From assembly GCA_964484195.1 (NCBI GenBank), contig CAZAER010000001.1, positions 1,215,754 through 1,279,753 on the forward strand: a DNA stretch of 64,000 bases, written 5' to 3'. The notes below the pieces were generated by a model. The model had not been told where the DNA came from. It did not search any database and saw nothing but the letters and a program-made list of their open reading frames with translations. The DNA comes from an uncultured Bdellovibrionales bacterium (lineage in GTDB: Bacteria; Myxococcota; XYA12-FULL-58-9; JALHOP01). Numbering within the stretch: position 1 is the first letter of the stretch; the number at the start of each line of letters is the position of its first letter. Made by a program: the position numbers and the translations under genes. Shown piece after piece: positions 10,314 through 26,367 of the stretch.

Positions 10314-11693
10314 CTAGAGGGACTGCAAAACCGCGGCGATCTCCGCGACGCTCCCCGGCCGCTTCCGCGGATCGCGGTCGAGGCAGCGCAAGATCATCGT
10401 GTCGAGGTCCCTCGGAACACCCTTCCCGACCACCGCGCTCGGAGGCTTGGGGGCGTCGCTGACTTGCCGCAGGATCATCTCGGCCCAGCCGTTCGCTTTG
10501 AACGGCAGCTCACCCGCGATCATCGAGAAGAGCACCACTCCCAAGCTGTAGATGTCCGAGCGCGCATCGACTTGCTCGCCCATGAGCTGCTCGGGCGCCA
10601 TGTAGCCGGGGGTGCCGACCACCTCGCCAACCAGGGTCCGCGGACCGCCGTCGAGCGTCGTATCGAGGCGGAGCTTTGCGATACCGAAATCGAGCAGCTT
10701 CACGTAGTCGGTCAAACCCGCGGTGCGCACCAGCATGATGTTCTGCGGCTTGAGGTCGCGGTGCACGATACCCGCCCGATGCACCGCATCCAACGCACCG
10801 CAGAGCTGTCGCGCGATTGCCGCGATCCGCGATAACGGAAATCGTCCCTTGGCATTGAGCTCTTGGCTCAGCGTCTGACCGACCAAGAGCTCCATCACGA
10901 TGAACACGTGGTCGTCACCCACCACGAGGTCGGTGATCTGGACGATGTTGTCGTGGGAGATCTGATTCACCAACCGCGCTTCATCGTAGAAGCGACGCAA
11001 CGCCGCGCGGTCGTGGATGTGCTCTTGTTTGAGCAGCTTCAACGCGACCTTGCGGCCCAGCAGCGTGTGCTGCGCCAGGAAGACATCGCCCATGCCGCCC
11101 GACCCGATGCGCTCGACGACGGTGTAGCGCCCGAGCTTGTCGCCCTTCTTCACGAAGCGCGGCACATCGGGCGCGGGAGGCGGCGGAGGCACGAGAGCGA
11201 TGGGCGGCGGGGGCGGCGGCTTCACTGCCGGCATCGCGGCAGTCACCGCCGACGGCGCAACGGTCCGCATCTTGGCAACCGGAGGCAAAGGAGGCGGCGT
11301 CTCCACCGCCACCATCGACCAGCGAGGCTGACTGTTGCTCTGATGGGTCGAGAGCTCGTCGAGGTACGCTTTGAGCTCACCGTGCATGTGCGCGTCGATG
11401 CCGACGAAGCGCATGCCCATCCCCGAAGGCCGGTTGCGGGTGGAGTCGTTCGGGTCACGCGTCCAGACCACCTGGACGCGACTCGTAATCTCGAGCGACG
11501 GCCCGAATGCTCCAGGCAGCACGATATCGACGTCGAAGACAGCGCCCGGCCGCAATAGCGGCGCCCCGGAGACGAACATCCCGGTTTCGCTGATGTTGAT
11601 GGCGCTCCAATCAGGGCGCTGTTTGGCGGCCCGTGGCACCACAGGGGCAAGCACCGACCAGCGAGGCGCGGGCTTGACCGCAGACAGGCTCAT
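10314..11693 (-). CDS. PilZ-domain Ser/Thr protein kinase (a c-di-GMP receptor fused to a kinase).
   Basis: The N-terminal PilZ carries R..R and NISETGMFVSG-type motifs. It is followed by a Pro-rich linker and a full Hanks kinase (GSGGMGDVFLA, VALK, HRDLKPQNI, DFGIAK, APE). The GGAGGG Shine-Dalgarno site sits before the ATG at 11693. Confidence 0.85.
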   Translation of the reverse strand: MSLSAVKPAPRWSVLAPVVPRAAKQRPDWSAINISETGMFVSGAPLLRPGAVFDVDIVLPGAFGPSLEITSRVQVVWTRDPNDSTRNRPSGMGMRFVGIDAHMHGELKAYLDELSTHQSNSQPRWSMVAVETPPPLPPVAKMRTVAPSAVTAAMPAVKPPPPPPIALVPPPPPAPDVPRFVKKGDKLGRYTVVERIGSGGMGDVFLAQHTLLGRKVALKLLKQEHIHDRAALRRFYDEARLVNQISHDNIVQITDLVVGDDHVFIVMELLVGQTLSQELNAKGRFPLSRIAAIARQLCGALDAVHRAGIVHRDLKPQNIMLVRTAGLTDYVKLLDFGIAKLRLDTTLDGGPRTLVGEVVGTPGYMAPEQLMGEQVDARSDIYSLGVVLFSMIAGELPFKANGWAEMILRQVSDAPKPPSAVVGKGVPRDLDTMILRCLDRDPRKRPGSVAEIAAVLQSL

Positions 11694-11819
11694 TCCAGTC
11701 CCTCCGCCACTCCCCCGCCCCCCACGACGACTGGAGTCGGCGCCGATCTCTCGTCGACGCTAGGAATCGTATCAGCGCCTTGGGTCCGTGCAACCCGACC
11801 GTACCTGACGGCGCGGCAA

Positions 11820-13154
11820 TCAGGGACTGAGCCGCGGAACGGCAAATCCGGGTCCTGGCCGGCCCCACAGGAAGCCTTGAGCCAAACGGACGCCGAGCTC
11901 GACCACTGTGGCACGTTCCTCATCCTTCTCGATGCCCTCGGCTACGACTTTCGCGCCGATGTCTTCGGACGCAACCAGCAAGCTTCGGACCAAAGCACGC
12001 TTGGCCCGCTCGATGTGGACGTCACGAACCAGGGACATATCCAGCTTCAGGTAGTCGGGCTGCAGGCGCACGACGTGCGTGAGGTTCGCATAACCGGCGC
12101 CGACGTCGTCGATGGCTAAGCGCGCCCCGGCGTTACGGAGGTCGGAGAGTCCACGCTCGAGGAGCTCGTAGTTGCGGACAGCGACACTCTCGCTCAGCTC
12201 GATGACGATGCGACTCGGCGGAATGGCGCCTTCTTCCGACTCGAGCAATGCCTCGCGGAAGCGCGGGTCGTTGACGAGACCCGGCGTGACATTGAGGAAC
12301 AGGTCCGCTCCAGCGGGCAAGTCGGTGGCGCTCTCCATGGCGCAGCGGAAACATGCGCGCAGCATCTCGCCGCTCAGCTTGGCGGTGCTCGCGAGATGAA
12401 AGAGCGCGGCCGGCATCTCGAAGCCGGCGTCGGTCGGCCCGCGCACCAGTGCTTCGTAGCCGTGCACCCCTCCATCATGGAGATCGATGACCGGCTGGAA
12501 GAACATGCGGAGCTGCTCATTGATGAGAATGTCGCGCAGACGCTCGCGTGCTCGCGCGGCGACATGGAGCTCTTGGCTCGCGGCGATGCGCCGCGCTTCA
12601 TCGAGCCCGCGGTAGACCAGTCGCTCCGGCTGCACCATGGCATTCGAGAGCACCAAGGCGAAGCCGACACGCGGCGCCGCCGTGATCCCGAAGGGCGAGA
12701 GCACAGCAGCAAGCCGCGCCATGAACGCCACGTGGATGCGCGCCGCAACCTGCTCGAGCTCGCGGTGCGAGAAGTCGCCGCCGCGACGCGGCCCCTCGAG
12801 GAAAAACGCGATCTGCTCGCCGTACGGCATGACCGTGCAGAGCAGATCGCCGCTGCCCAGCACCTCGCTGCGCAACGCCCCGGCCTCGCGTGCGACCTTG
12901 CCCAACAGCTCGTTGTACGCGGAGCGCCCGAACTCCATCTCGACCGAGCCGAAGGGCTCGAGGTCGATGAGCACGATGCCGAGATACCCGAGCGTCTCGA
13001 GCAAGACGTGCACGTCGTGCGTGATGGCGTGCAGCGGTGGGAGATGCGTCGCGCTATCGAGCTCTACCCGTTCACGGTCGGTCACCGGAACGACACCTGC
13101 CACGCCCTTTGCCACGCTGAACCTCACACGCCCGAAGCCTCGCCCCACGAACAA
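11820..13154 (-). CDS. EAL-domain c-di-GMP phosphodiesterase with an N-terminal degenerate GGDEF-like domain.
   Basis: EAL-domain signature motifs are present (YEALVR, DDVGAGYANL, EGIE). The N-terminal roughly 200 aa resembles a GGDEF fold in which SGDLL replaces the GGDEF motif. It sits immediately upstream of the PilZ-kinase on the same strand. Confidence 0.8.
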   Translation of the reverse strand: MFVGRGFGRVRFSVAKGVAGVVPVTDRERVELDSATHLPPLHAITHDVHVLLETLGYLGIVLIDLEPFGSVEMEFGRSAYNELLGKVAREAGALRSEVLGSGDLLCTVMPYGEQIAFFLEGPRRGGDFSHRELEQVAARIHVAFMARLAAVLSPFGITAAPRVGFALVLSNAMVQPERLVYRGLDEARRIAASQELHVAARARERLRDILINEQLRMFFQPVIDLHDGGVHGYEALVRGPTDAGFEMPAALFHLASTAKLSGEMLRACFRCAMESATDLPAGADLFLNVTPGLVNDPRFREALLESEEGAIPPSRIVIELSESVAVRNYELLERGLSDLRNAGARLAIDDVGAGYANLTHVVRLQPDYLKLDMSLVRDVHIERAKRALVRSLLVASEDIGAKVVAEGIEKDEERATVVELGVRLAQGFLWGRPGPGFAVPRLSP

Positions 13155-15070: not shown

Positions 15071-15794
15071 CGAGCACGCGCGACAGAGTCAGATCGACCT
15101 GGCTCTCGACCATGGCCAAGAGGCTGTCGAGAGCTCGGTCGTCGACCATGAGCTGATGACGCAGGCGTGCACGGGTCTCGTTCACCATGTCCGTGCGCGC
15201 CTGCGTGATCCAGCGGCTGACTGTCGACGCATTCACGCGTTGCAGCTTGCCGATGGCACGTACGGTGAGACCGTCGACGAAATGCAATCGAAGTATCGCC
15301 CGTTGGTCGCGTGGCAAGCGCAGCAGCACCGCCTCGAGCACCTCCCGGAGCAGTCCGCCGTAGCGTCGCTTGAAGTAGTCGAGCTCGGGATCCGCTGTAG
15401 CTGCTGGTACGTTGCCCTGCTCCCGATCTGCAGCGACGAAAGCGGCATGTCCACGGCGAAGGTTTTGAGCGACACGCATCGCGGTCACGCGAAGCCAGCC
15501 TCCCAAGGGGCCACCGCCGCGATAGCTCGCAATCTTGGGTGGCGAGTCGGGGGTCCCCACGAAGAGCTTCTCGCGCAGCTGGCTCTTCACCTCATCGGCG
15601 AAGGCGACTGACGCATCGATGCGCGCGACGTACCCTGCGACCTTCGCCATGTGCTGCTCTTCGAAGACGGCGAGAGCTTGGGCGTCACCACGCGCGCATG
15701 CGGCTGCGAGCTCGAGGTCATGCGCGTGGTCGCCCCCCGCTTCGCTATCGCCTTTTCTTTTCGAGCCCACCCTGGAAAAATACAGGAGGGCCAT
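15054..15794 (-). CDS. ECF-type RNA polymerase sigma factor.
   Basis: Sigma-70 region 2 (HDLELAAACARGDAQALAVFEEQH) and a region-4 HTH (LTVRAIGKLQRVNASTVSRWI) are both present. The start is uncertain: an ATG at 15794 overlaps the kinase ATG on the opposite strand, and a GTG lies slightly downstream. Confidence 0.75.
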   Translation of the reverse strand: MALLYFSRVGSKRKGDSEAGGDHAHDLELAAACARGDAQALAVFEEQHMAKVAGYVARIDASVAFADEVKSQLREKLFVGTPDSPPKIASYRGGGPLGGWLRVTAMRVAQNLRRGHAAFVAADREQGNVPAATADPELDYFKRRYGGLLREVLEAVLLRLPRDQRAILRLHFVDGLTVRAIGKLQRVNASTVSRWITQARTDMVNETRARLRHQLMVDDRALDSLLAMVESQVDLTLSRVLASASE

Positions 15795-17067
15795 GGCGGA
15801 GCAACTCCCACAGCATTGCCTGCAAAGCGACACGATCCAGGGCTTCGTCGAGGGCTGGATCCGCGATGCCTCTTACGACCGGGCCCGCGAGCACATCGAG
15901 CGTTGCAGCGAGTGCCGCGCCTTGGTGGTGGCGGCGGCGCGCACCTACACGACGTCCGGTACCGGCACCCCACCGGGCGTGAGCGCGTCCGCGCCAGCGA
16001 TCACGTCGGCGCGCTACGAGATCAGCGCTCTCATCGGCGCGGGTGGCATGGGCGTCGTCTACCAGGCCTATGACGTGCAGCTGCAGCGGAAAGTGGCGCT
16101 CAAGGTCCTCCATTCGAGCCCCAGCGGCGACGCGTCGTCTGCCCAAGCGCGCCTGCTGCGGGAAGCGCGCGCCATGGCTCAGCTATCGAATCCCAACGTC
16201 GTTCACGTGTACGACGTCGGCGCATTCGACGATCAAGTGTTCATCGCCATGGAGCTCGTCGAGGGCGAGACCTTGCGGCAATGGCTGCGTCGTACACCAC
16301 GCGCTGCACCTCACGTCGCTGCCGTGCTCATCGACGCTGGGCGCGGCTTGGCGGCGGCGCACGGCGCGGGCCTCGTGCATCGTGACTTCAAGCCGGACAA
16401 CGTGCTCATCGGCCGCGATGGCAGAGCGCGCGTGACCGACTTCGGCGTAGCGCGTGAGCTCTCACTCACCGAGACCGAAGCCGGCGGGGTCGTCGGCACA
16501 CCGGCGTACATGTCGCCCGAGCAGTTTCTCGGCAAAGCGGTGGACGCGCGTGCCGATCAGTTCAGCTTCTGCGTCGCCTTCTACGAGTCGATCTACGGCG
16601 CCCGGCCGTTTGCCGGTGTGACACCGGCGGAGATCAAACGCGCGGTGCTAGCGCGCGAGCTTCAGCTACCCGACGGCGGCGATCCACGTTTGCTCGCGAT
16701 CCTGCGGCGCGGGCTCAGCGGCGAGCCTTCCGACCGCTATAGCGGCATGGACACATTACTCGCCGACCTCGCGGCAATCCGTTACGAGCCGCGCAGCAAA
16801 CAGCGGCGGCGTCTCGTGGTCGGCGCCATCGTGCTGGCGTTGATGACCGCGCTCGGCGTCGGGGCTTGGCTCGCGCACGCACCGTCCGCTATCGAGACGT
16901 CGATTGCCCCACTCCCCGTCGAGCCGACAGCCGAGATCGCACCAGTGGTTACGCCCATCAATAAGGCGTCACCGCCACCACGCCGGAAGGTGAAAGACGT
17001 TCACCCGGCCAAACCAACGGCCAAGCCGCTCCATGAGGACGACTTGCTCCCATTCGAGAAGAAATGA
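15793..17067 (+). CDS. Ser/Thr protein kinase with an N-terminal zf-HC2 anti-sigma-like zinc finger and a C-terminal TM helix and Pro-rich tail.
   Basis: AGGAGGG precedes the ATG at 15793. The first roughly 45 aa carry HIERCSECR (H-x3-C-x2-C). The kinase motifs [27 protein letters not shown] and SPEQ are all present. Confidence 0.85.
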
Positions 17068-17783
17068 AAGCCGTATGGTTGGCGTGCGTGCTGCTCTTGC
17101 AGGTCGCTGCGACTGCGATGGCGGACACCAAGGCACGACGCGCCGAGCAGCTCTACGACGAAGGAGCGCGCTTCTATAACCTCGCGCAGTACGACCAAGC
17201 GATCGACGCCTTCCAACAAGCCTATCTGCTTTCGGGGCAGACGAGCCTCCTGTTCAACATCGCGCAGGCCGCACGGCAGGCGAATCGCTGCGCTGAGGCC
17301 ACCACCGCGTATCGCAACTACTTGCGCGCCGAGCCCGACGCTGCCAATCGCGACACCGTCGAGCGTCACATCGCCGAGATGGAAGCGTGCACGGAGGCCG
17401 CGGCGCGCCTCACGACGCCGCCGCCAGCACCACCGCCCACCGTCGCCGCAACGCCGCGACCCGCCGTCGAGCCTCCGCCCGCGAGCGTCTCTCCCTGGGT
17501 GTGGGGTCTTGGCGCCGGCGGCATCGCTCTGGCAGCAGGCGGCACTGCTTTGCTCGTGTCGACTTCGTCGAGCCTCGACGCCTGCAGTCCCCGCTGCTCT
17601 CCCGACCGCGTCGACGACCTGCGTGTGCGTGCTGGCGTCGGCTACGGACTGCTGGGCGGCGCTGGCCTGTCGCTCGCGGCCGCGGCTTGGCTATGGCTGC
17701 GGCCACCTGGACGCGATAACGAACAGCCGCCGGTCACGGTCTCGCTACACCCACGCGGTATCGCGGTTTGGAGCAGCTTTTGA
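17064..17783 (+). CDS. TPR-repeat protein with a signal peptide and a C-terminal TM segment.
   Basis: There is an ATGA overlap with the kinase stop. The signal peptide is [20 protein letters not shown]-like helix pair (YDQAIDAFQQAYLL) is followed by a Pro-rich linker. Confidence 0.7.
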   Translation: MKAVWLACVLLLQVAATAMADTKARRAEQLYDEGARFYNLAQYDQAIDAFQQAYLLSGQTSLLFNIAQAARQANRCAEATTAYRNYLRAEPDAANRDTVERHIAEMEACTEAAARLTTPPPAPPPTVAATPRPAVEPPPASVSPWVWGLGAGGIALAAGGTALLVSTSSSLDACSPRCSPDRVDDLRVRAGVGYGLLGGAGLSLAAAAWLWLRPPGRDNEQPPVTVSLHPRGIAVWSSF

Positions 17784-18570: not shown

Positions 18571-19317
18571 CTAGTCCGGCGTGCCAGGCGATTCGAGATA
18601 GGCCGCCTCGAAAAAAGGCTCGAGCTCACCCAGCGCGTCGGTGATGGAGAACGCGCCACCCTCGGTGAATAGGTCGAGGCGCACGAGTGCGTTGGCGTTC
18701 GCGTCTTGGGTCGCCGCGGATCGGATGGCGCGTGCGATGTGCACGTTCACCTGATGCACCGAGCGATAGATGTCTTTGAGCCCTGCGAGCGAAAAGTCGG
18801 CGTCGAGGCCGCGGCGCCCGCGCATGAGCTGCGCCAAGAGATACATCGATGCCGCGCGATAGATGGTCTCCTGGCGGTCGGCGAGCGGTAGGTGAAAACG
18901 CACCATCGGCCGCAGCTTGTCCATCGTCGGACAACCCGACGATACCATGTAGATGCCGGTCAAGGAGCTCAACGCGCCCTGCAATGCAGCTTCGGATTGA
19001 TAGGTTCGCTGCGCCGTCGTCACGGTCAACGCCACCCTCTCGTACGACACGCGGTGACCGAGCTTTTCGATGAGCTCCACCAAGCTCACGGCGACGGGAC
19101 AATGCGTATCGCCGCGCTGCTTTAGCGGACAACCAGGGCAGCCGATGGCCTCGAGTCGGGTCCACTCGGGGAGCGTGGGCTCACTCGTGCGCAGCAATGC
19201 GAGCGTTCGCGGATGCAGGCGTGGGTTGACGCGAACCACGGTGCCGTCGCCGAAGGTGAAGGTGTATGCGATCGAGATAGGCTGCTCGTTCTGCATGAGG
19301 CTTCGAGCATAGCTCAC
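18571..19317 (-). CDS. Hypothetical protein.
   Basis: The 248-aa ORF has a GTG start at 19317 preceded by a G-rich Shine-Dalgarno site. An alternative ATG lies at 19296. Confidence 0.55.
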
Positions 19318-20795
19318 CTGCGACGTTTCCCCCCCAATAACGAGCCCAAAAGGCCTCGCGTCAGCTCCCGCGCCAGGGAGCTACCGACGGAGCGGGCGGC
19401 GCTCTTGGCGACGACGTCGATGAGACCGTCGCGCTTTCCGCCCCGAGGTCCCGTGCTCCCGAAGATCAAGTCGTTCAGCGCACCGCCACCCGTTGGGGGG
19501 GCCTGGCGCTCGACGACCGCAGCCTGCGCCCGGGCGCTGAGCTGCTCGTAAGCGCTCTCGCGGTCGACGGCCTGGTCGTAGACGCCCTTCAGGTCGGAGC
19601 TCGCCATCACGGCGGCGCGGCGATCGGCGGCGATGGGTCCAATCTTCGATGACGGCGGGACGACCAACGCACGCTGGGTGACGCCGGGAACGCCATCGGC
19701 GTCGAGCAGGGAGATCAGCGCTTCACCTACGGCAAGCTCGCCGACGGCGCGTTCGATAGCGATGGCGGGATTGGGACGCATGCTATCGGCGACCGCCTTG
19801 ACCGCGCGCTGGTCACGCGGCGTGAACGCCCGCAGCGCATGCTGCACGCGGTTACCCAGCTGTCCGAGCACCTTGTCGGGAATGTCGCTCGGGTTCTGGC
19901 TCACGAGATACACGCCCACGCCCTTCGAGCGAATGAGCCGCACCACGCGCTCGATGGTCTCGAGCAACGCGGGCGGCGCGTCGTCGAACAACAGGTGCGC
20001 TTCGTCGAAAAAGAAGGCGAGCTTGGGCTTCGCGAGGTCACCGACCTCGGGAAGACGCTCGAAGAGCTCGGCGAGCAGCCACAGCAACAAGCTCGCGTAG
20101 AGCTTGGGCGCATGAATGAGCCGATCGGCCGCGAGGATGTTCACAACGCCGAGCCCGTCGCGGGTCTGCATGAGGTCATCGATGTCGAGCATCGGCTCCC
20201 CGAAGAAGACATCGCCGCCCTGTTCTTCGAGGCCGATCAAACCGCGCTGAATCGCCCCGACCGAGGCAGCGGACACGTTGCCGTATTTGGTCTTCAGCTC
20301 GCCGGCGTGCTCGCCGCACCATTGCAGCATCGAGCGCAGGTCCTTCAAGTCGAGTAGCAACAGGCCGTGGTCGTCGGCGACCTTGAAGACCAGCGTGAGC
20401 ACGCCCGCTTGCGTCTCGTTGAGGCCGAGCAAGCGCGCCAAGAGCTGCGGCCCCATGTCGGACACCGTCGCCCGCACTGGATGACCGGACGCTCCGAAGA
20501 CGTCCCAAAAGGTGACCGGGTAAGAGCGCCACTGCGGCGTCAGGCCCAGCTGTCCAAGGCGCGCGGAGACACGCTCGCCCGGGCTGCCCACGTCCGCTAT
20601 ACCGGACAAGTCGCCTTTGATGTCCGCCAGGAAGACCGGCACCCCCATCTCGGAGAAGCACTCGGCGAGACGCTGCAGAGTCACCGTCTTCCCGGTGCCC
20701 GTGGCGCCGAAGATGCATCCGTGGCGATTGGCGACGCTCGGCACGATGCCGAGATCGGTTGCGCCCGAGCGAGCGAAGAAAGGCGTGGTTTGCAT
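19314..20795 (-). CDS. HerA-like helicase/ATPase of the DUF853 (YjgR-like) family.
   Basis: The Walker A is GATGTGKT and the Walker B is FFFDEAH. The basic C-terminal tail is typical of DUF853. Confidence 0.8.
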
Positions 20796-22872: not shown

Positions 22873-23012
22873 GCTTTTCCATCTCCCACGGTTCCGTCAC
22901 GAAACGAACGGCCCGAGGCGCGCGTTGTCCCCCAGAAAGCGCCAAATGAGGAGACAAATCGAACGGCTCTCGAAGAAAGGTAAGGTCCCCCTGGAATGGG
23001 GCTAAAGGGGGC

Positions 23013-23396
23013 CTAGCTGCGGGGCCGCCACCCCTCCACCACGAAGGGCTCGATCGCGTTCCAGATCTCGGTCGCCCGGACCGGCTTGCTCAGCACCTCG
23101 GCAGCCCCGGCGCGCTTCAAAATGCCCACGTTGTCCTGCCCGAGGGTCGTGATGACGACGACGGGGATGTTCTTGGTCGTCGGCTGGCTCTTGAGCAGTG
23201 CCAGGACCTGAACCCCGTCCATGACGGGCATTTGGATGTCGAGCAGAATGACGTCGGGCTGCGATTCCAGGGCGATCTTGGCCGCCTGCAAGCCGTCCTC
23301 GGCGTAGAGCAACGCCAACCCGCGCTTGGCGAGGTAGTCGCCCTCGAGCTTGCGGAAGGCGGGGGAGTCGTCGGCGATGAGCACGGTCTTCGGCAC
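23013..23396 (-). CDS. Single-domain response regulator (receiver).
   Basis: DD at the N-terminus, the phospho-acceptor D in LLDIQMP, and conserved T and K positions. The ORF is 127 aa. Confidence 0.85.
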   Translation of the reverse strand: MPKTVLIADDSPAFRKLEGDYLAKRGLALLYAEDGLQAAKIALESQPDVILLDIQMPVMDGVQVLALLKSQPTTKNIPVVVITTLGQDNVGILKRAGAAEVLSKPVRATEIWNAIEPFVVEGWRPRS

Positions 23397-23458
23397 TGGG
23401 ACCTCGGGTTACGCGACCAGGACAAGCTACCCTAAAACCGGCCGATACGGGCGTTCCT

Positions 23459-23950
23459 CTACCTCAGGTAGTCGCCTGCCAGGGCATCGGCATACTCGTT
23501 CCAACGCGAGCCGTCGTGCGCGCGGATCCACTGCAGCCGTAGATTTTTCTTCTCGAGCGACAGCGCATAGAGCTCCTGGACCAGCTCGAGGTTCTTGATC
23601 TCGCCATCCTTGCGCCGCCAGCCACGCCGCGCCCAAGACGCCGCCCACTCGTTGATGGTTTTGACGCACAGCTGACTGTCCGTGAAAACGTCCAGCGGCA
23701 TGGTCGCCGAAGCCATGCGATAGGCGGCGATGAGCCCGGTGAGCTCCATCCGATTGTTCGTCGTATGGGCCTCGCGCCCGGTGACAGCGTCGATGATCTC
23801 GTCGTCGACGACGTACACCGCGCTCCAGCCCCCAGGCCCTGGATTGGGCGTCGCGCTACCGTCGGTAAACAGACCGGTCGTCGGCCCCTTCCGATAGGTG
23901 GCAAGCACTTGGTCGGGCGTCATCGAAGGACGGTTGAAGCGATGCGTCAT
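23459..23950 (-). CDS. rnhA: Ribonuclease HI.
   Basis: Contains FTDGSATPNPGPGGW, MELTG and the C-terminal RAHDG..NEYADALA. There is a 4-nt overlap with the upstream gene stop. An alternative start is MTPDQV at 23923. Confidence 0.85.
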   Translation of the reverse strand: MTHRFNRPSMTPDQVLATYRKGPTTGLFTDGSATPNPGPGGWSAVYVVDDEIIDAVTGREAHTTNNRMELTGLIAAYRMASATMPLDVFTDSQLCVKTINEWAASWARRGWRRKDGEIKNLELVQELYALSLEKKNLRLQWIRAHDGSRWNEYADALAGDYLR

Positions 23951-25107
23951 CCCAGCTGCTGTAGCACAGCTGAGATCTCCATGGCGCTCGAGGGTCGGTT
24001 GTTCGGATTGCGGTCCAAGCAGCGCCCGACGACGTTATCGAGCGCCTTGGGCACGCCCTTCCCCACCGCGGTCATCATCGCGTAGAGGACGCCACCGAGA
24101 CTGTAGATGTCGGCGCGCGCGTCGACCGGCTCTCCCGCGAGCTGCTCGGGGGCCATGAAGCCCGGAGTCACCGTTCCCGCGAGCGACCGTGGCGCATCCA
24201 TCGTCGTCCCCCGGCGGAGCGTCGCGATGCCGAAATCGAGGAGCTTCGCGAAGTCGGGGCTGAGCGAGTGGCGCACCAGCATGACGTTCTGCGGCTTCAG
24301 GTTGCGATGCACGACACCGGCGCGGTGGACGGCCTCGAGCGCGCCACAAAGCTGCTGACCGATGGAGACGATCCGCGATAGCGGAAGCGGCCCACTCCGA
24401 GACAGCACCTCGCTCAGGTTCTGACCGACCAGGAGCTCCATGACGACGAACACGTGGTCGTCGTCGACGACGAGGTCGGTGATTTGCACGATGTTATCGT
24501 GCGAGATCTGATTCACGAGGCGCGCTTCGTCGCAGAATCGGCGGACTGCGGCGCGGTCGTGCACGTGCTCGTCTTTCAAGAGCTTGAGCGCGACCCGTCG
24601 ACCGAGCAGCTGGTGCTCGGCGAGAAACACGTCGCCCGAGCCCCCCGAGCCGATGCGCTCGACGATGGCGTAGCGACCGAGCTTGTCGCCCTTTTGGATC
24701 GCCCGCGGCAGGTCTGGCGGAGGCGGAGGAGCGTCGACGACGGTCTTCGGCATCGGCTGGATGCTCTGATGACTCGGCAGCCTCGCGAGGTAAGCCTTGA
24801 GCGCCGCCTCCATGATGGGATCGATGCCGAGGAAGCGCATGCCCATGCCGGCGGGTCGGTTGCGGGTCGAATCGGGGAACCCGCGAATCCACACCACCTC
24901 GACGCGACTCGTGATCTCCAGCGACTCCGCCAACATGATGTTGACGTCGACCACCGAGCCTGGACGCAATAGCGGCGCCCCCGAGACGAACATCCCGGTC
25001 TCGCTGATATTGATGGTGTTCCACTCGGGGCGGAGTGTCGGTGTCCGCGGGACTACGGGAGCGAGCACTGACCATCGTGTCGCAGGCTTGCCGGGGGAGG
25101 CGCGCAT
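23947..25107 (-). CDS. PilZ-domain pseudokinase (predicted), a paralog of the 10314..11693 gene.
   Basis: It has the same PilZ N-terminus (TRWSVLAPVVPR, NISETGMFVSGAPLLRPG) and the same kinase fold. The catalytic loop is HRNLKPQN (HRD to HRN), the Gly loop is GSGGSGD, and the C-lobe has a deletion relative to the paralog. The start at 25107 follows the ACTGGAATG context shared with the paralog. Confidence 0.75.
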   Translation of the reverse strand: MRASPGKPATRWSVLAPVVPRTPTLRPEWNTINISETGMFVSGAPLLRPGSVVDVNIMLAESLEITSRVEVVWIRGFPDSTRNRPAGMGMRFLGIDPIMEAALKAYLARLPSHQSIQPMPKTVVDAPPPPPDLPRAIQKGDKLGRYAIVERIGSGGSGDVFLAEHQLLGRRVALKLLKDEHVHDRAAVRRFCDEARLVNQISHDNIVQITDLVVDDDHVFVVMELLVGQNLSEVLSRSGPLPLSRIVSIGQQLCGALEAVHRAGVVHRNLKPQNVMLVRHSLSPDFAKLLDFGIATLRRGTTMDAPRSLAGTVTPGFMAPEQLAGEPVDARADIYSLGGVLYAMMTAVGKGVPKALDNVVGRCLDRNPNNRPSSAMEISAVLQQLG

Positions 25108-25197
25108 TCCAGTCCGTTCCATCGGAGAGTTTGTACTCGATTCTCTCCAAAATGCTCGTGCGTCACTTGTCGCCGCGAACCGAAGCGAAATCTGGCA

Positions 25198-26367
25198 TTG
25201 TTTCGGAGCATGTTCGCCGCGTTCGCCTCGCTCTTGCTCCTGGCCCAAACAAGTCCCGAGTCCGCAGGCGCGGAAAAGGCGATGTTGTTGGTGATGCCGC
25301 TGCGCGCGGAAACGAAGCTCGCGGCGTCGGCGCGGGCGCTCGACGAGCTCATCCTCGGCGCCGTCGATGGCTTGCAGCGCTATCAGGTGCTCGGCGCCAG
25401 CGACCTGAACGCATTGCTCGGCGTCGAGAAAATGAAAGACGCGATCGCCTGCGAAGACACGGTGTGCGCCGCTGAGATCGGTGGTGCGCTAGGTGCGCCA
25501 TACCTACTCGCCGGAGAGCTGCGCGCCTTGGACCAGCAGGTCGTCCTGTCGTTGCGACTGATGGATACGAAGAAGCAAACGGTGATGGCGCGCGCCACCG
25601 CGCGGGGATCGACCCAAGCCGAGTCTCTCAACCAGATGATGGCCCAGGTCGTCGGCACCTGCTTCAAGACCACGGTGCAAACGGCCGCTCCGCAGACGGG
25701 CGCCGAAGGCGATTACAGCGGCTACATGGGACTCATCAACGAGCTCAGCGGCTACGCGACGCGCAACGAATACACGAGCCTCTTGAGCAAGCTCGATGAC
25801 CTGAAAGCGCGCGCGAAGAAGGTCAAGACGCCTCCCGGGGGTGCCTCCGCCGACGAGCTGCTCACCTACTACAATGCGACCGCCTGCTTCATGCTCAAGC
25901 GGGAGCCGTGCCTGCGCACCGCCGCCGCGCACTATCAAAAGGAATGGCCGAGCGGGAACTATCGCCCCGGTCTCGAAACCTTCCTGACGACGTTCGACGA
26001 CCAAAAGACCGCTCGAGCGGACCGCGAGCCCGAGGTCAAAGAGAAGCTCGCGGACATCGCGGAAAAGCTGAAGAGCGGCGTCTATCAGCCGCTGCAAGCC
26101 CAAGAGATGACTGCGTTTGCGTACTATGGCGGACAGGACTATGCGCAAGCAGCCAAACACTTCGCACTGCTCCTCGACAAGCTGTACGCGGAGAAACCCC
26201 CGCAGGTGGACAAGGTCATGAGCACGACGTCGCTCGTGGTCATGGCCTGGCAGCAGGTAGGCGACTTCGACGCGGCGCGCGCGGCATTGAAGAAAGCGGA
26301 GGCCCTCGACGCCAAGGCGTATCGCGCCAATGGGCTGCAGCAGACGGCGAGAGCCCTGCCGAAGTAG
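25198..26367 (+). CDS. Secreted hypothetical protein.
   Basis: The signal peptide is MFRSMFAAFASLLLLAQTSPESAGA. The 389-aa ORF is helical and Lys/Ala-rich. Confidence 0.6.
   Translation: MFRSMFAAFASLLLLAQTSPESAGAEKAMLLVMPLRAETKLAASARALDELILGAVDGLQRYQVLGASDLNALLGVEKMKDAIACEDTVCAAEIGGALGAPYLLAGELRALDQQVVLSLRLMDTKKQTVMARATARGSTQAESLNQMMAQVVGTCFKTTVQTAAPQTGAEGDYSGYMGLINELSGYATRNEYTSLLSKLDDLKARAKKVKTPPGGASADELLTYYNATACFMLKREPCLRTAAAHYQKEWPSGNYRPGLETFLTTFDDQKTARADREPEVKEKLADIAEKLKSGVYQPLQAQEMTAFAYYGGQDYAQAAKHFALLLDKLYAEKPPQVDKVMSTTSLVVMAWQQVGDFDAARAALKKAEALDAKAYRANGLQQTARALPK

What the first reader, a model, noticed from the sequence alone, without database searches (positions are those of the whole stretch)
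23947..25107. Second PilZ-kinase paralog appears to be a pseudokinase (HRD to HRN, Gly-loop change, C-lobe deletion) and is translationally coupled to rnhA
The two PilZ-kinase genes (10314..11693 and 23947..25107) share the PilZ N-terminus and even their start-codon context (ACTGGAATG). The second copy has HRNLKPQN in place of the catalytic HRDLKPQN, GSGGSGD in place of GSGGMGD, DFGIAT in place of DFGIAK, and lacks about 25 residues of the C-lobe. A c-di-GMP-binding pseudokinase could act as a decoy or scaffold for the active paralog. Its 4-nt overlap with RNase HI suggests co-transcription, which is unexpected.
Basis: seen in the sequence. Interest (0 to 1): 0.6.

Follow-up and report, generated by a model that had tools for sequence, protein, structure and literature searches.

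The report
Young PilZ-linked pseudokinase beside rnhA
One of two neighbouring PilZ-plus-protein-kinase genes in this poorly sampled myxobacterial genome has recently lost its catalytic aspartate and a substrate-docking helix while staying under purifying selection, so it is probably a newly born bacterial pseudokinase; its overlap with the RNase HI gene comes from a local rearrangement and is not a conserved partnership.

Summary
Both genes lie on the minus strand. Copy 2 (25107..23947, 386 aa) and copy 1 (11693..10314, 459 aa) are PilZ + Hanks-kinase paralogs (59% identity, E 5e-166).

Copy 2 carries HRN, GSGGSG and DFGIAT. It keeps every nucleotide/metal-binding residue: β3 Lys, αC Glu, catalytic-loop Asn and DFG Asp.

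Only about a dozen family members were found among 5.8 billion proteins. Copy 2 is the only one with these lesions. Its sister and positional ortholog (P0002, a Myxococcota MAG) is fully canonical, so the lesions are derived and specific to this lineage.

The copy-2 branch has dN/dS ≈ 0.24 (95% CI 0.16–0.36). This is no higher than its active ortholog, and all indels are in frame. The best reading is therefore a young pseudokinase that is still maintained. A very recently inactivated gene remains a serious rival.

The ATGA overlap with rnhA is real, but the linkage is absent from every relative, where rnhA sits in four other upstream contexts. c-di-GMP binding is unproven, because the PilZ motif reads KxxxR rather than RxxxR. 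Interest is modest.

The parts
23947..25107 (-). Copy 2: PilZ + degenerate Hanks-type kinase (386 aa). An alternative in-frame ATG at 25122 would add MERTG.
   Evidence: ORF. Pfam PilZ 44.4 bits and Pkinase 150.9 bits. An identical protein, P0001, is called in public assemblies. The N-terminal extension resembles the VDETG/VEETG starts of P0005 and P0004.
24784..25077 (-). PilZ domain of copy 2 (residues 11-108). The motifs are K7xxxR11 (non-canonical) and N33-I-S-E-T-G38 (canonical).
   Evidence: Pfam PF07238 match over residues 11-108. Weak TIGR02266 match. Motifs read from the alignment. AF2 predicts a β-barrel plus a C-terminal helix (97-114) at pLDDT above 90.
23953..24672 (-). Kinase-fold domain of copy 2 (residues 146-385). 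K175, E194, N274, D291, E321, D333 and R371 are retained.
   Evidence: The AF2 model has pLDDT 87.7. The best structural matches are PknB, PknA and Stk1.
24301..24303 (-). AAC codon: the catalytic-base Asp is replaced by Asn269 (HRD to HRN). This is a single G-to-A transition relative to GAC in all relatives.
   Evidence: The position is Asp in 99 of 100 homologs.
24220..24222 (-). ACG codon: DFGIAK to DFGIAT (K296T). By homology with PKA Lys189, this basic residue anchors the activation-loop phosphate (own knowledge).
   Evidence: The position is Lys or Arg in 94 of 100 homologs.
24637..24639 (-). TCG codon: the Gly-loop Met is replaced by Ser157. The three glycines are kept.
   Evidence: The position is Met in 90 of 100 homologs. 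The G-loop Met is described as a bacterial-STK-specific residue that packs on the αC RF-Phe (bioRxiv 10.1101/2025.01.12.632604).
24064..24069 (-). Junction (A347|V348) of the 81-nt in-frame deletion. The deletion removes the αF-αG loop, helix αG and the poly-Pro part of the αG-αH loop.
   Evidence: Codon alignment. The AF2 model of copy 1 places αG at 403-412 inside the deleted equivalent, residues 395-421. The copy-2 model goes from αF (330-345) straight to αH (354-363). Spacing is 38 against a median of 65.
24166..24171 (-). Junction (V313|T314) of a 6-nt in-frame deletion in the P+1 loop. It removes the conserved Gly of the G-T/S-P motif.
23459..23950 (-). rnhA (RNase HI, 163 aa). The D/E/D/H/D catalytic residues are present.
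   Evidence: Pfam RNase_H 106.5 bits. NF001236 scores 118.9 bits, below its equivalog cut-off of 160. Catalytic residues were read from the sequence.
23947..23950 (-). ATGA overlap: the rnhA start ATG overlaps the kinase stop TGA. The A of the ATG is the third base of the kinase's last Gly codon (GGA here, GGG in ortholog P0002).
   Evidence: Homology to P0002's locus runs to 23944, and homology to rnhA loci starts at 23938.
10314..11693 (-). Copy 1: the intact PilZ + Hanks kinase paralog (459 aa; HRD, GGMG, DFGIAK and αG all present).
23013..23396 (-). Stand-alone response-regulator receiver gene, 62 nt downstream of rnhA on the same strand. It is a possible third gene of the transcription unit.
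   Evidence: Pfam Response_reg 80.8 bits. It is conserved in L086 and L088, where it is not next to rnhA.

Best explanation
Copy 2 is a lineage-specific, recently derived pseudokinase. It is the positional ortholog of a canonical PilZ-Hanks kinase, and on its terminal branch it lost the parts needed for phosphotransfer and substrate handling:
- the catalytic base (D269N);
- the basic residue that anchors the activation-loop phosphate (K296T);
- the Gly-loop Met (M157S);
- two residues of the P+1 loop;
- the whole αG helix.

It kept the PilZ domain, the N-lobe and every ATP/Mg-binding residue.

**Shown**
- The lesions exist and are unique to this protein.
- They are derived rather than ancestral.
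- The ORF is intact and has evolved under purifying selection as strong as that on its active ortholog.

**Inferred**
- The protein is still made and folds.
- It can bind nucleotide but has, at most, trace kinase activity.
- It acts non-catalytically. The most plausible route is pairing with the intact paralog (copy 1) or with copy 1's partners through the conserved N-lobe (back-to-back type interface) and/or the PilZ domain. A front-to-front pseudo-substrate role is less likely.

**rnhA junction**
The junction is a separate, incidental event. A local rearrangement placed rnhA directly after the kinase stop codon. rnhA is now probably co-transcribed with copy 2 and translated by termination-reinitiation.
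For: **Paralogy and domains:**

**Lesions are unique**
- Copy 2 is the only lesioned member among 13 family members.
- It is also the outlier among 100 kinase homologs.

**Lesions are derived**
- Copy 2 and P0002 are sisters (bootstrap 0.985).
- They share the upstream 1150/1416-aa gene.
- P0002 has HRD, GGMG, DFGIAK and αG.
- P0002's genome also carries a second, intact paralog, P0005. The duplication is therefore older than the lesions.

**Constraint**
- Tajima relative-rate tests show no acceleration (34 vs 29 unique changes, p > 0.1).
- Three-point NG86 branch dN/dS is 0.24 (bootstrap CI 0.16-0.36; 0 of 1000 replicates reached 1). For the kinase domain it is 0.21 (0.13-0.35). P0002's branch gives 0.27.
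- The N-lobe is the most constrained part.
- The 81-nt and 6-nt deletions are both in frame.
- Residues K175, E194, N274, D291, E321, D333 and R371 are retained.
- AF2 predicts a confident kinase fold lacking αG (pLDDT 87.7).

**Real sequence:** independent assemblies are identical.

**Precedents**
- PknD D138N, the same substitution, is 2,600-fold less active and is still phosphorylated by other kinases in vivo (PMC1847690).
- HER3 and the JAK JH2 domains carry Asn at this position and bind ATP. HER3 allosterically activates its active paralogs (PMC4718504).
- G-helix deletion and HRD-to-Asn changes recur in established bacterial pseudokinase families.
- The equivalents of the N-lobe dimer residues PknB R10, L33 and D76 are present as R145, L168 and D211. 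This mapping rests on my own knowledge.

**rnhA junction:**
Against: - This is a single genome lineage. No second sequence carries the lesions, so there is no evidence that the pseudokinase state itself is conserved.
- The branch-average dN/dS cannot date the lesions. Neutral evolution over roughly the last 10-25% of the branch would be compatible with the confidence interval.
- An open frame could also be maintained by selection for rnhA expression (polarity or coupling) rather than for the protein.
- There are no expression, nucleotide-binding, c-di-GMP-binding or interaction data.
- AF2 confidence does not prove that a kinase fold without αG is stable.
- NG86 three-point estimates with dS of about 0.3-0.4 per branch are approximate.
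Confidence: 0.55

Rival explanations
1. Copy 2 is a recently inactivated kinase gene on its way to loss. It is made redundant by copy 1 and has no function of its own. Its ORF is still open only because too little time has passed, and/or because nonsense or frameshift mutations would reduce expression of the translationally coupled rnhA downstream.
For: - The lesions occur in one genome only.
- Five independent hits fall on catalytic or substrate elements, as expected once catalysis is lost and constraint relaxes.
- An intact paralog lies 12 kb away.
- rnhA has no Shine-Dalgarno-like sequence of its own, and its ATG is built from the kinase's last codons. Selection on rnhA could therefore preserve the frame.
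- The dN/dS confidence interval allows a short terminal neutral phase.
Against: - The branch dN/dS of 0.24 is no higher than in the active ortholog, and the kinase-domain value is lower still at 0.21.
- Polarity would select against stop codons but not against missense change.
- The ATP-binding residues, the N-lobe and the αH-αI core remain at family consensus.
- Both copy-2-specific deletions inside the kinase domain are in frame.
- No nonsense or frameshift mutation is present.
Confidence: 0.3
2. Copy 2 is still a working, low-activity or atypical kinase. Asn269 or a neighbouring residue would substitute for the catalytic base, and the deletions would retune substrate specificity.
For: - All ATP/Mg ligands and the Gly-loop glycines are kept.
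- HER3, which has the same Asp-to-Asn change, shows weak autophosphorylation when concentrated on vesicles (PMC4718504).
- Purifying selection is maintained.
Against: - The identical substitution in a bacterial Hanks kinase (PknD D138N) lowers activity 2,600-fold (PMC1847690).
- In addition, the P+1 loop is shortened, the activation-loop phosphate anchor K296 is lost and αG is deleted.
- Asp is present in 99 of 100 homologs.
Confidence: 0.12
3. The HRN codon and the deletions are sequencing or assembly artefacts.
For: None found. In principle a single-genome observation could be an error.
Against: Two Logan assemblies from different SRA runs are 100% identical to the window across the whole gene and its flanks. 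The exact protein was seen on 5 contigs. Multiple independent differences, all in frame, are not the pattern that errors give.
Confidence: 0.02

Closest known systems
Myxococcus xanthus Pkn1 (MXAN_1467), a Ser/Thr kinase fused to a PilZ domain
   Same: It is a Hanks-type kinase and a PilZ domain in one cytoplasmic protein from a myxobacterium. Its PilZ domain is predicted from sequence not to be a canonical c-di-GMP binder, and binding has never been tested (PMC8316039).
   Different: In Pkn1 the PilZ domain is C-terminal to the kinase (own knowledge; one search lists Pkn1 only as a PilZ fusion). Here the PilZ domain is N-terminal and joined by a Pro-rich linker. Pkn1 is an active kinase. No homology test against Pkn1 was run here.
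HER3/ErbB3 and JAK JH2 pseudokinase domains (eukaryotic)
   Same: Asn replaces the catalytic-loop Asp, while the β3 Lys, catalytic-loop Asn and DFG Asp are kept and ATP is bound. Each works alongside a catalytically active paralog or domain, and HER3 is an allosteric activator of EGFR/HER2 (PMC4718504).
   Different: They are eukaryotic tyrosine-kinase-family proteins, ancient and conserved, and they retain αG. Copy 2 is a bacterial singleton with αG deleted. No interaction with its paralog has been shown.
Bacterial pseudokinase families ActPs1 and ActPs2 (bacterial STK atlas)
   Same: ActPs2 has the HRD Asp replaced by Asn. [quoted passage not shown] Copy 2 combines both kinds of lesion.
   Different: They are large, conserved actinobacterial families that also lack the β3 Lys and the DFG Asp. 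Copy 2 keeps both and is nested inside a canonical myxobacterial PilZ-kinase clade. It is not a member of either family.
PknB/PknD-type Hanks kinases of Mycobacterium and StkP of Streptococcus
   Same: These are the closest solved structures. In the activation model, N-lobe back-to-back dimers activate and C-lobe front-to-front dimers trans-phosphorylate (PMC13434768). The engineered PknD D138N mutant equals the natural HRN state.
   Different: They are membrane receptor kinases with PASTA or β-propeller sensors. Copy 2 is soluble, is linked to PilZ, and naturally lacks the C-lobe αG interface.

Membership tests
Hanks-type (eukaryotic-like) protein kinase fold, Pfam PF00069 | Pkinase profile match above the gathering threshold | tested here: met
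   150.9 bits against a cut-off of 31.7. The match covers only profile positions 1-192 of 263 because of the deletion. Foldseek's best hits are PknB, PknA and Stk1.
Hanks-type (eukaryotic-like) protein kinase fold, Pfam PF00069 | Nucleotide/metal-binding residues: GxGxxG, β3 Lys, αC Glu, catalytic-loop Asn, DFG Asp | tested here: met
   G153/G155/G158, K175, E194, N274 and D291 are all present.
Catalytically competent Hanks kinase | Catalytic-base Asp in the HRD motif | tested here: not met
   HRN: Asn269, codon AAC at 24301-24303. The position is Asp in 99 of 100 homologs.
Catalytically competent Hanks kinase | Complete C-lobe with the GHI subdomain (αG) and an intact P+1 loop | tested here: not met
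   A 27-residue deletion removes αG and a 2-residue deletion removes the P+1-loop Gly.
Catalytically competent Hanks kinase | Measurable phosphotransfer activity | not testable with these tools
   This needs an in vitro kinase assay. The only indirect evidence is that PknD D138N is 2,600-fold less active.
Pseudokinase (bioinformatic definition: kinase fold lacking at least one of the VAIK-Lys, HRD-Asp or DFG-Asp) | Loss of one of the three catalytic-triad residues in an otherwise recognisable kinase domain | tested here: met
   The HRD Asp is lost, while the Lys and the DFG Asp are kept. The definition is as used.
Pseudokinase retained for a non-catalytic function | Evolutionary conservation of the degenerate state, or purifying selection on it | tested here: inconclusive
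   The branch dN/dS of 0.24 (0.16-0.36) indicates constraint. However, no second sequence carries the lesions, so selection after the lesions arose cannot be isolated.
PilZ domain c-di-GMP receptor (PF07238) | PilZ profile match above threshold | tested here: met
   44.4 bits against a cut-off of 22.5. The match to TIGR02266 is only weak (38.4 bits, cut-off 68.7).
PilZ domain c-di-GMP receptor (PF07238) | RxxxR motif in the N-terminal loop | tested here: not met
   K7-P-A-T-R11 in copy 2 and K7-P-A-P-R11 in copy 1. Lys is at the first position in most family members.
PilZ domain c-di-GMP receptor (PF07238) | [D/N]hSxxG motif | tested here: met
   N33-I-S-E-T-G38, conserved across the family.
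PilZ domain c-di-GMP receptor (PF07238) | Binding of c-di-GMP | not testable with these tools
   This needs DRaCALA, ITC or MST on the purified domain.
ActPs1 / ActPs2 bacterial pseudokinase families | β3 Lys lost (Arg in ActPs2), DFG Asp lost or deleted, actinobacterial clade | tested here: not met
   K175 and D291 are present. The protein is nested with canonical Myxococcota PilZ-kinases.
RNase HI (rnhA) for the downstream gene | RNase_H profile match and the D-E-D-(H)-D catalytic residues | tested here: met
   PF00075 scores 106.5 bits against a cut-off of 25.8. FTDGS, NNRMEL, FTDSQ, RAHDG and NEYADAL were read in the sequence. The NCBIfam equivalog NF001236 scores 118.9, below its cut-off of 160.
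Conserved kinase-rnhA operon | The same gene pair adjacent in related genomes | tested here: not met
   - P0002 is followed by a convergent gene.
- L086 has the 385-aa gene directly beside rnhA with no kinase between them.
- In L084, L085 and L091 rnhA follows an amidohydrolase.
- In L090 the upstream neighbour is a bPH_2 gene.
- In L088 rnhA lies 7 kb from P0005.

The most novel reading that the evidence does not exclude
A newly born bacterial pseudokinase caught just after its origin. Under this reading, copy 2 has been retained as a second-messenger-responsive (PilZ-linked), ATP-binding but non-catalytic partner that allosterically tunes its intact paralog through the N-lobe. That would be HER3/EGFR-like logic in a bacterium. 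Its expression would be locked to a housekeeping gene (rnhA) by translational coupling. Together with the canonical ortholog P0002 and paralog copy 1, it would form a natural before/after series showing how a kinase becomes a pseudokinase: first the catalytic base, then the activation-loop anchor, the P+1 loop and αG.
Probability: 0.15. Interest if true: 0.65.

Novelty: new member of a known kind. Interest (0 to 1): 0.33.

Why it matters
Bacterial pseudokinases have only recently been catalogued. The described families are old and heavily degraded, so the early steps of pseudokinase evolution cannot be seen in them. Here three related genes are available together: a canonical ortholog, a canonical paralog in the same genome, and a copy with five discrete lesions that still evolves under constraint. 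That makes the order and consequences of the lesions directly testable by reverting them one at a time. It would also give a first test of whether a PilZ-linked Hanks kinase responds to c-di-GMP. If the gene turns out to be simply dying, the case is ordinary. The rnhA overlap matters mainly as a caution: a tight overlap can be created by one rearrangement plus one synonymous change, and it need not signal a functional link.

Tried and rejected
2. **Metagenome scan with copy 2.** Nothing closer than 37% identity was found.
3. **Promoter/terminator scan of 22900-25400.** No promoter-like site was found, and the one terminator-like site was on the wrong strand. This is uninformative for a myxobacterial genome.
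4. **Sigma-factor search to name the organism.** Only unnamed or 'Myxococcota bacterium' relatives came back, the closest at 79% identity. The lineage is poorly sampled and no genus could be assigned.
5. **Gene conversion between the two copies.** Sliding-window DNA identity shows copy 2 closer to P0002 almost everywhere. The only exception is a trivial excess toward copy 1 in the activation-loop window. This was rejected as an explanation for the shared features.
6. **Microhomology at the 81-nt deletion.** Only 3-4 nt (GCG/G) is shared, which does not identify a mechanism.
7. **Reading the EAL gene next to copy 1 as support for a c-di-GMP module.** The adjacency is absent in L087 and L088, so it is weak evidence.
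8. **An rnhA start at the second ATG (23923), which would abolish the overlap.** This is disfavoured because homologs have Leu at that position and conserve the upstream peptide.
9. **Mieczkowski 2008 (PMC2599879).** The paper could not be read. The statement that PknB V222/A225 lie in αG rests on my own knowledge.
Full report
**1. What is at the coordinates**

Both genes are on the minus strand. Copy 2 runs 25107..23947 (386 aa) and copy 1 runs 11693..10314 (459 aa). They are clear paralogs, with 59% identity end to end and E 5e-166.

Each has an N-terminal PilZ domain (Pfam 44.4 and 40.8 bits, cut-off 22.5), a Pro-rich linker, and a Hanks-type kinase domain (150.9 and 188.4 bits). In copy 2 the Pkinase match stops at profile position 192 of 263. 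The shared start context is real and extends to GGACTGGAATG.

An in-frame ATG five codons upstream (25122) would add MERTG. That resembles the VDETG/VEETG N-termini of relatives, so the true start may be there. This does not affect anything below.

**2. The lesions**

Compared with copy 1 and all relatives, copy 2 has five changes:
- HRD to HRN: D269N, a single GAC-to-AAC change at 24301-24303.
- GSGGMG to GSGGSG: M157S.
- DFGIAK to DFGIAT: K296T.
- A 6-nt deletion that removes 'VG' just before the P+1-loop Thr.
- An exact 81-nt deletion, with its junction at A347|V348.

The AF2 model of copy 1 (pLDDT 85.3) places αF at 377-393, αG at 403-412 and αH at 428-437. The deleted equivalent is residues 395-421, which covers the αF-αG loop, all of αG and the poly-proline stretch. 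The copy-2 model (pLDDT 87.7) goes from αF (330-345) through an 8-residue loop straight to αH (354-363). The nearest solved structures are PknB, PknA and Stk1.

In 100 aligned homologs:
- The changed positions are Asp 99%, Met 90% and Lys/Arg 94%.
- The αF-Asp to subdomain-XI-Arg spacing is 38 in copy 2, against a median of 65 and a minimum of 44.

What is not damaged matters as much:
- The Gly-loop glycines, β3 K175, αC E194, catalytic-loop N274, DFG D291, APE E321, αF D333 and R371 are all retained.
- The lesions therefore hit phosphotransfer, activation-loop coupling and substrate or partner docking. They do not hit nucleotide or metal binding.

The sequence is not an error. Two Logan assemblies from different runs are 100% identical over 3.4 kb.

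**3. How widespread the family is, and which state is ancestral**

A search of 5.8 billion proteins found only about a dozen PilZ-kinase relatives (P0002-P0013). All come from uncultured Myxococcota or unnamed metagenome contigs, and copy 2 is the only one with any of these lesions. A JGI metagenome scan found nothing closer than 37% identity.

Copy 2 and P0002 are sisters (NJ bootstrap 0.985) and share the upstream 1150/1416-aa gene, so they are positional orthologs. P0002 is fully canonical. P0002's MAG (GCA_041288095.1) also encodes a second intact paralog, P0005. The duplication therefore predates the split of the two genomes, and the lesions arose later, on the window's own lineage.

**4. 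Decay or maintenance**

- Tajima relative-rate tests show no acceleration of copy 2 against P0002 (for example 34 vs 29 unique changes; all p > 0.1).
- Three-point NG86 estimates, averaged over three outgroups and bootstrapped, give a copy-2 branch dN/dS of 0.24 (95% CI 0.16-0.36; 0 of 1000 replicates reached 1).
- For the kinase domain alone the value is 0.21 (0.13-0.35). P0002's branch gives 0.27 (0.17-0.44).
- The N-lobe is the most constrained part.
- Both deletions are in frame and there is no nonsense mutation.

This excludes long-term neutral decay. It does not exclude a recent inactivation covering roughly the last 10-25% of the branch. The lesions also cannot be dated, because no second genome carries them.

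One confounder is that rnhA is coupled downstream. Selection for rnhA expression would disfavour stop codons and frameshifts in copy 2 even if the protein were useless. It would not, however, keep missense change low.

On balance I favour a maintained, non-catalytic protein (0.55) over a dying gene (0.30) or a residual kinase (0.12).

**5. Likely mechanism (inference)**

The identical substitution engineered in M. tuberculosis PknD (D138N) lowers activity 2,600-fold, and the mutant protein is still phosphorylated by other kinases in vivo (PMC1847690). HER3 and the JAK JH2 domains naturally carry Asn at this position and bind ATP. HER3 allosterically activates its catalytically active paralogs (PMC4718504).

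In the current model for PknB/StkP-type kinases, N-lobe back-to-back dimers activate, and C-lobe front-to-front dimers carry out trans-phosphorylation (PMC13434768).
- Copy 2 keeps the equivalents of the N-lobe interface residues (R145, L168, D211).
- It has deleted αG, which carries the front-to-front contacts. This mapping rests partly on my own knowledge of PknB numbering.
- That pattern fits an N-lobe- or PilZ-mediated partner of copy 1 better than a front-to-front decoy substrate.

One weak extra hint is that only the two window paralogs share a TT pair at the same activation-loop position.

c-di-GMP responsiveness is unproven. Both copies read KxxxR where the canonical motif is RxxxR, while N-I-S-E-T-G is canonical. 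The only studied myxobacterial PilZ-kinase, Pkn1, is itself predicted not to bind c-di-GMP (PMC8316039).

**6. The rnhA overlap**

rnhA (23950..23459) is a canonical RNase HI (Pfam 106.5 bits; D/E/D/H/D residues present). Its ATG overlaps the kinase TGA as ATGA. Homologs conserve the N-terminal peptide (F/W)NRPxxTPxQVLA and have Leu where the window has its second Met, so the upstream ATG is the likely start.

The linkage is unique to this genome:
- P0002 is followed by a convergent gene.
- A syntenic relative (L086) has the 385-aa gene directly beside rnhA, with no kinase between them.
- Three other loci (L084, L085 and probably L091) place rnhA directly after an amidohydrolase; in L084, where the junction was read, a GTG start lies one base after the upstream stop.
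- Another relative has a divergent bPH_2 gene upstream.
- In P0002's genome rnhA lies 7 kb from the other paralog.

Homology to P0002's locus ends at 23944, and homology to rnhA loci begins at 23938. P0002 ends ...GGG TGA and copy 2 ends ...GGA TGA. The rnhA ATG is thus formed by a synonymous third-base change plus the first two bases of the stop codon.

Four-base overlaps are common in this clade, with three in 16 kb of L084. Co-transcription and termination-reinitiation are therefore plausible, but they reflect a local rearrangement rather than a conserved kinase/RNase H relationship.

**7. Comparison with known systems and novelty**

PilZ-kinase fusions (Pkn1) and bacterial Hanks-derived pseudokinases are both known. 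Among the latter, ActPs2 has the HRD-to-Asn change and ActPs1 has the G-helix deletion. Copy 2 belongs to none of the described pseudokinase families, because it keeps the β3 Lys and the DFG Asp and nests in a canonical clade.

It is best described as a new, lineage-specific member of a known kind. Its value is as a 'young' pseudokinase with intact reference copies available. Its weakness is that it is a singleton with no functional data.

**8. Verdict**

- Interest is 0.33.

Noticed in passing
window 11820-13154 (-): An EAL-domain gene lies 126 nt upstream of copy 1 on the same strand. Its catalytic motifs appear intact (YEALVR, ELSE, DDVGAGY, KLD, EGIE). The adjacency is absent upstream of the copy-1-type genes in L087 and L088.
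   Followed up: partly
window 23459-23950; L084, L085, L086, L088, L090, L091: RNase HI proteins clustered with the window's at 90% identity sit in five different upstream contexts: kinase, a 385-aa divergent gene, an abutting amidohydrolase, a bPH_2 gene and a GMC oxidoreductase. rnhA appears to mark a rearrangement hot spot in this clade.
   Followed up: partly
window 11694-11800 (-); L087 7918-8000; L088 7889-8000: The roughly 100 nt upstream of copy 1, P0003 and P0005 are conserved at the DNA level, including a block GGTTGC...CTGATACGATT...GTGTCGAC. This may be a shared promoter or leader. Copy 2 and P0002 lack it, and their similarity to the others stops about 25 nt before the start.
   Followed up: partly
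window 25108-25125 and 11694-11710; L001 5950-5970; L088 7985-8010: The GGACTGGAA block before the start codon is conserved in all five genes whether or not it is translated. In P0005 the ATG has become ACG and the annotated start moved to an upstream GTG, so the block is coding. In P0002 the ATG is lost (ATC) and a TTG at L001:5968 probably serves as the start, so P0002's annotated N-terminus is likely too short.
   Followed up: partly
window copy 1 residues ~343-344 and copy 2 residues 301-302: Only the two paralogs of this genome share a Thr-Thr pair at the same activation-loop position (DTTLD and GTTMD). Other family members have other residues there. This could reflect a shared phosphorylation site, or chance.
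   Followed up: no
window 15535-17067 (+): A third, unrelated Hanks kinase with an intact HRD/DFG, a Cys-rich N-terminal segment and a C-terminal hydrophobic stretch. The next ORF (17064-17783) overlaps it by 4 nt.
   Followed up: partly
window 19314-20795 (-): A HerA-like ATPase gene (Pfam HerA_C, 701 bits) sits between the spermine-synthase-like gene and the DUF6901 gene. It is absent at that position in the syntenic contig L086.
   Followed up: no
P0014, P0096, P0063 (homolog list): Two unrelated bacterial kinases among the top 120 hits also read HRN (P0014, P0096). One (P0063) has an αF-to-subdomain-XI spacing about 21 residues short. Sporadic pseudokinase-like variants therefore occur at a level of a few percent.
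   Followed up: no
window 25198/25210-26367 (+): A conserved 385-aa protein with no Pfam match is transcribed divergently from copy 2. Homologs (75-80% DNA identity) occur in L086 and L088, next to different genes.
   Followed up: no
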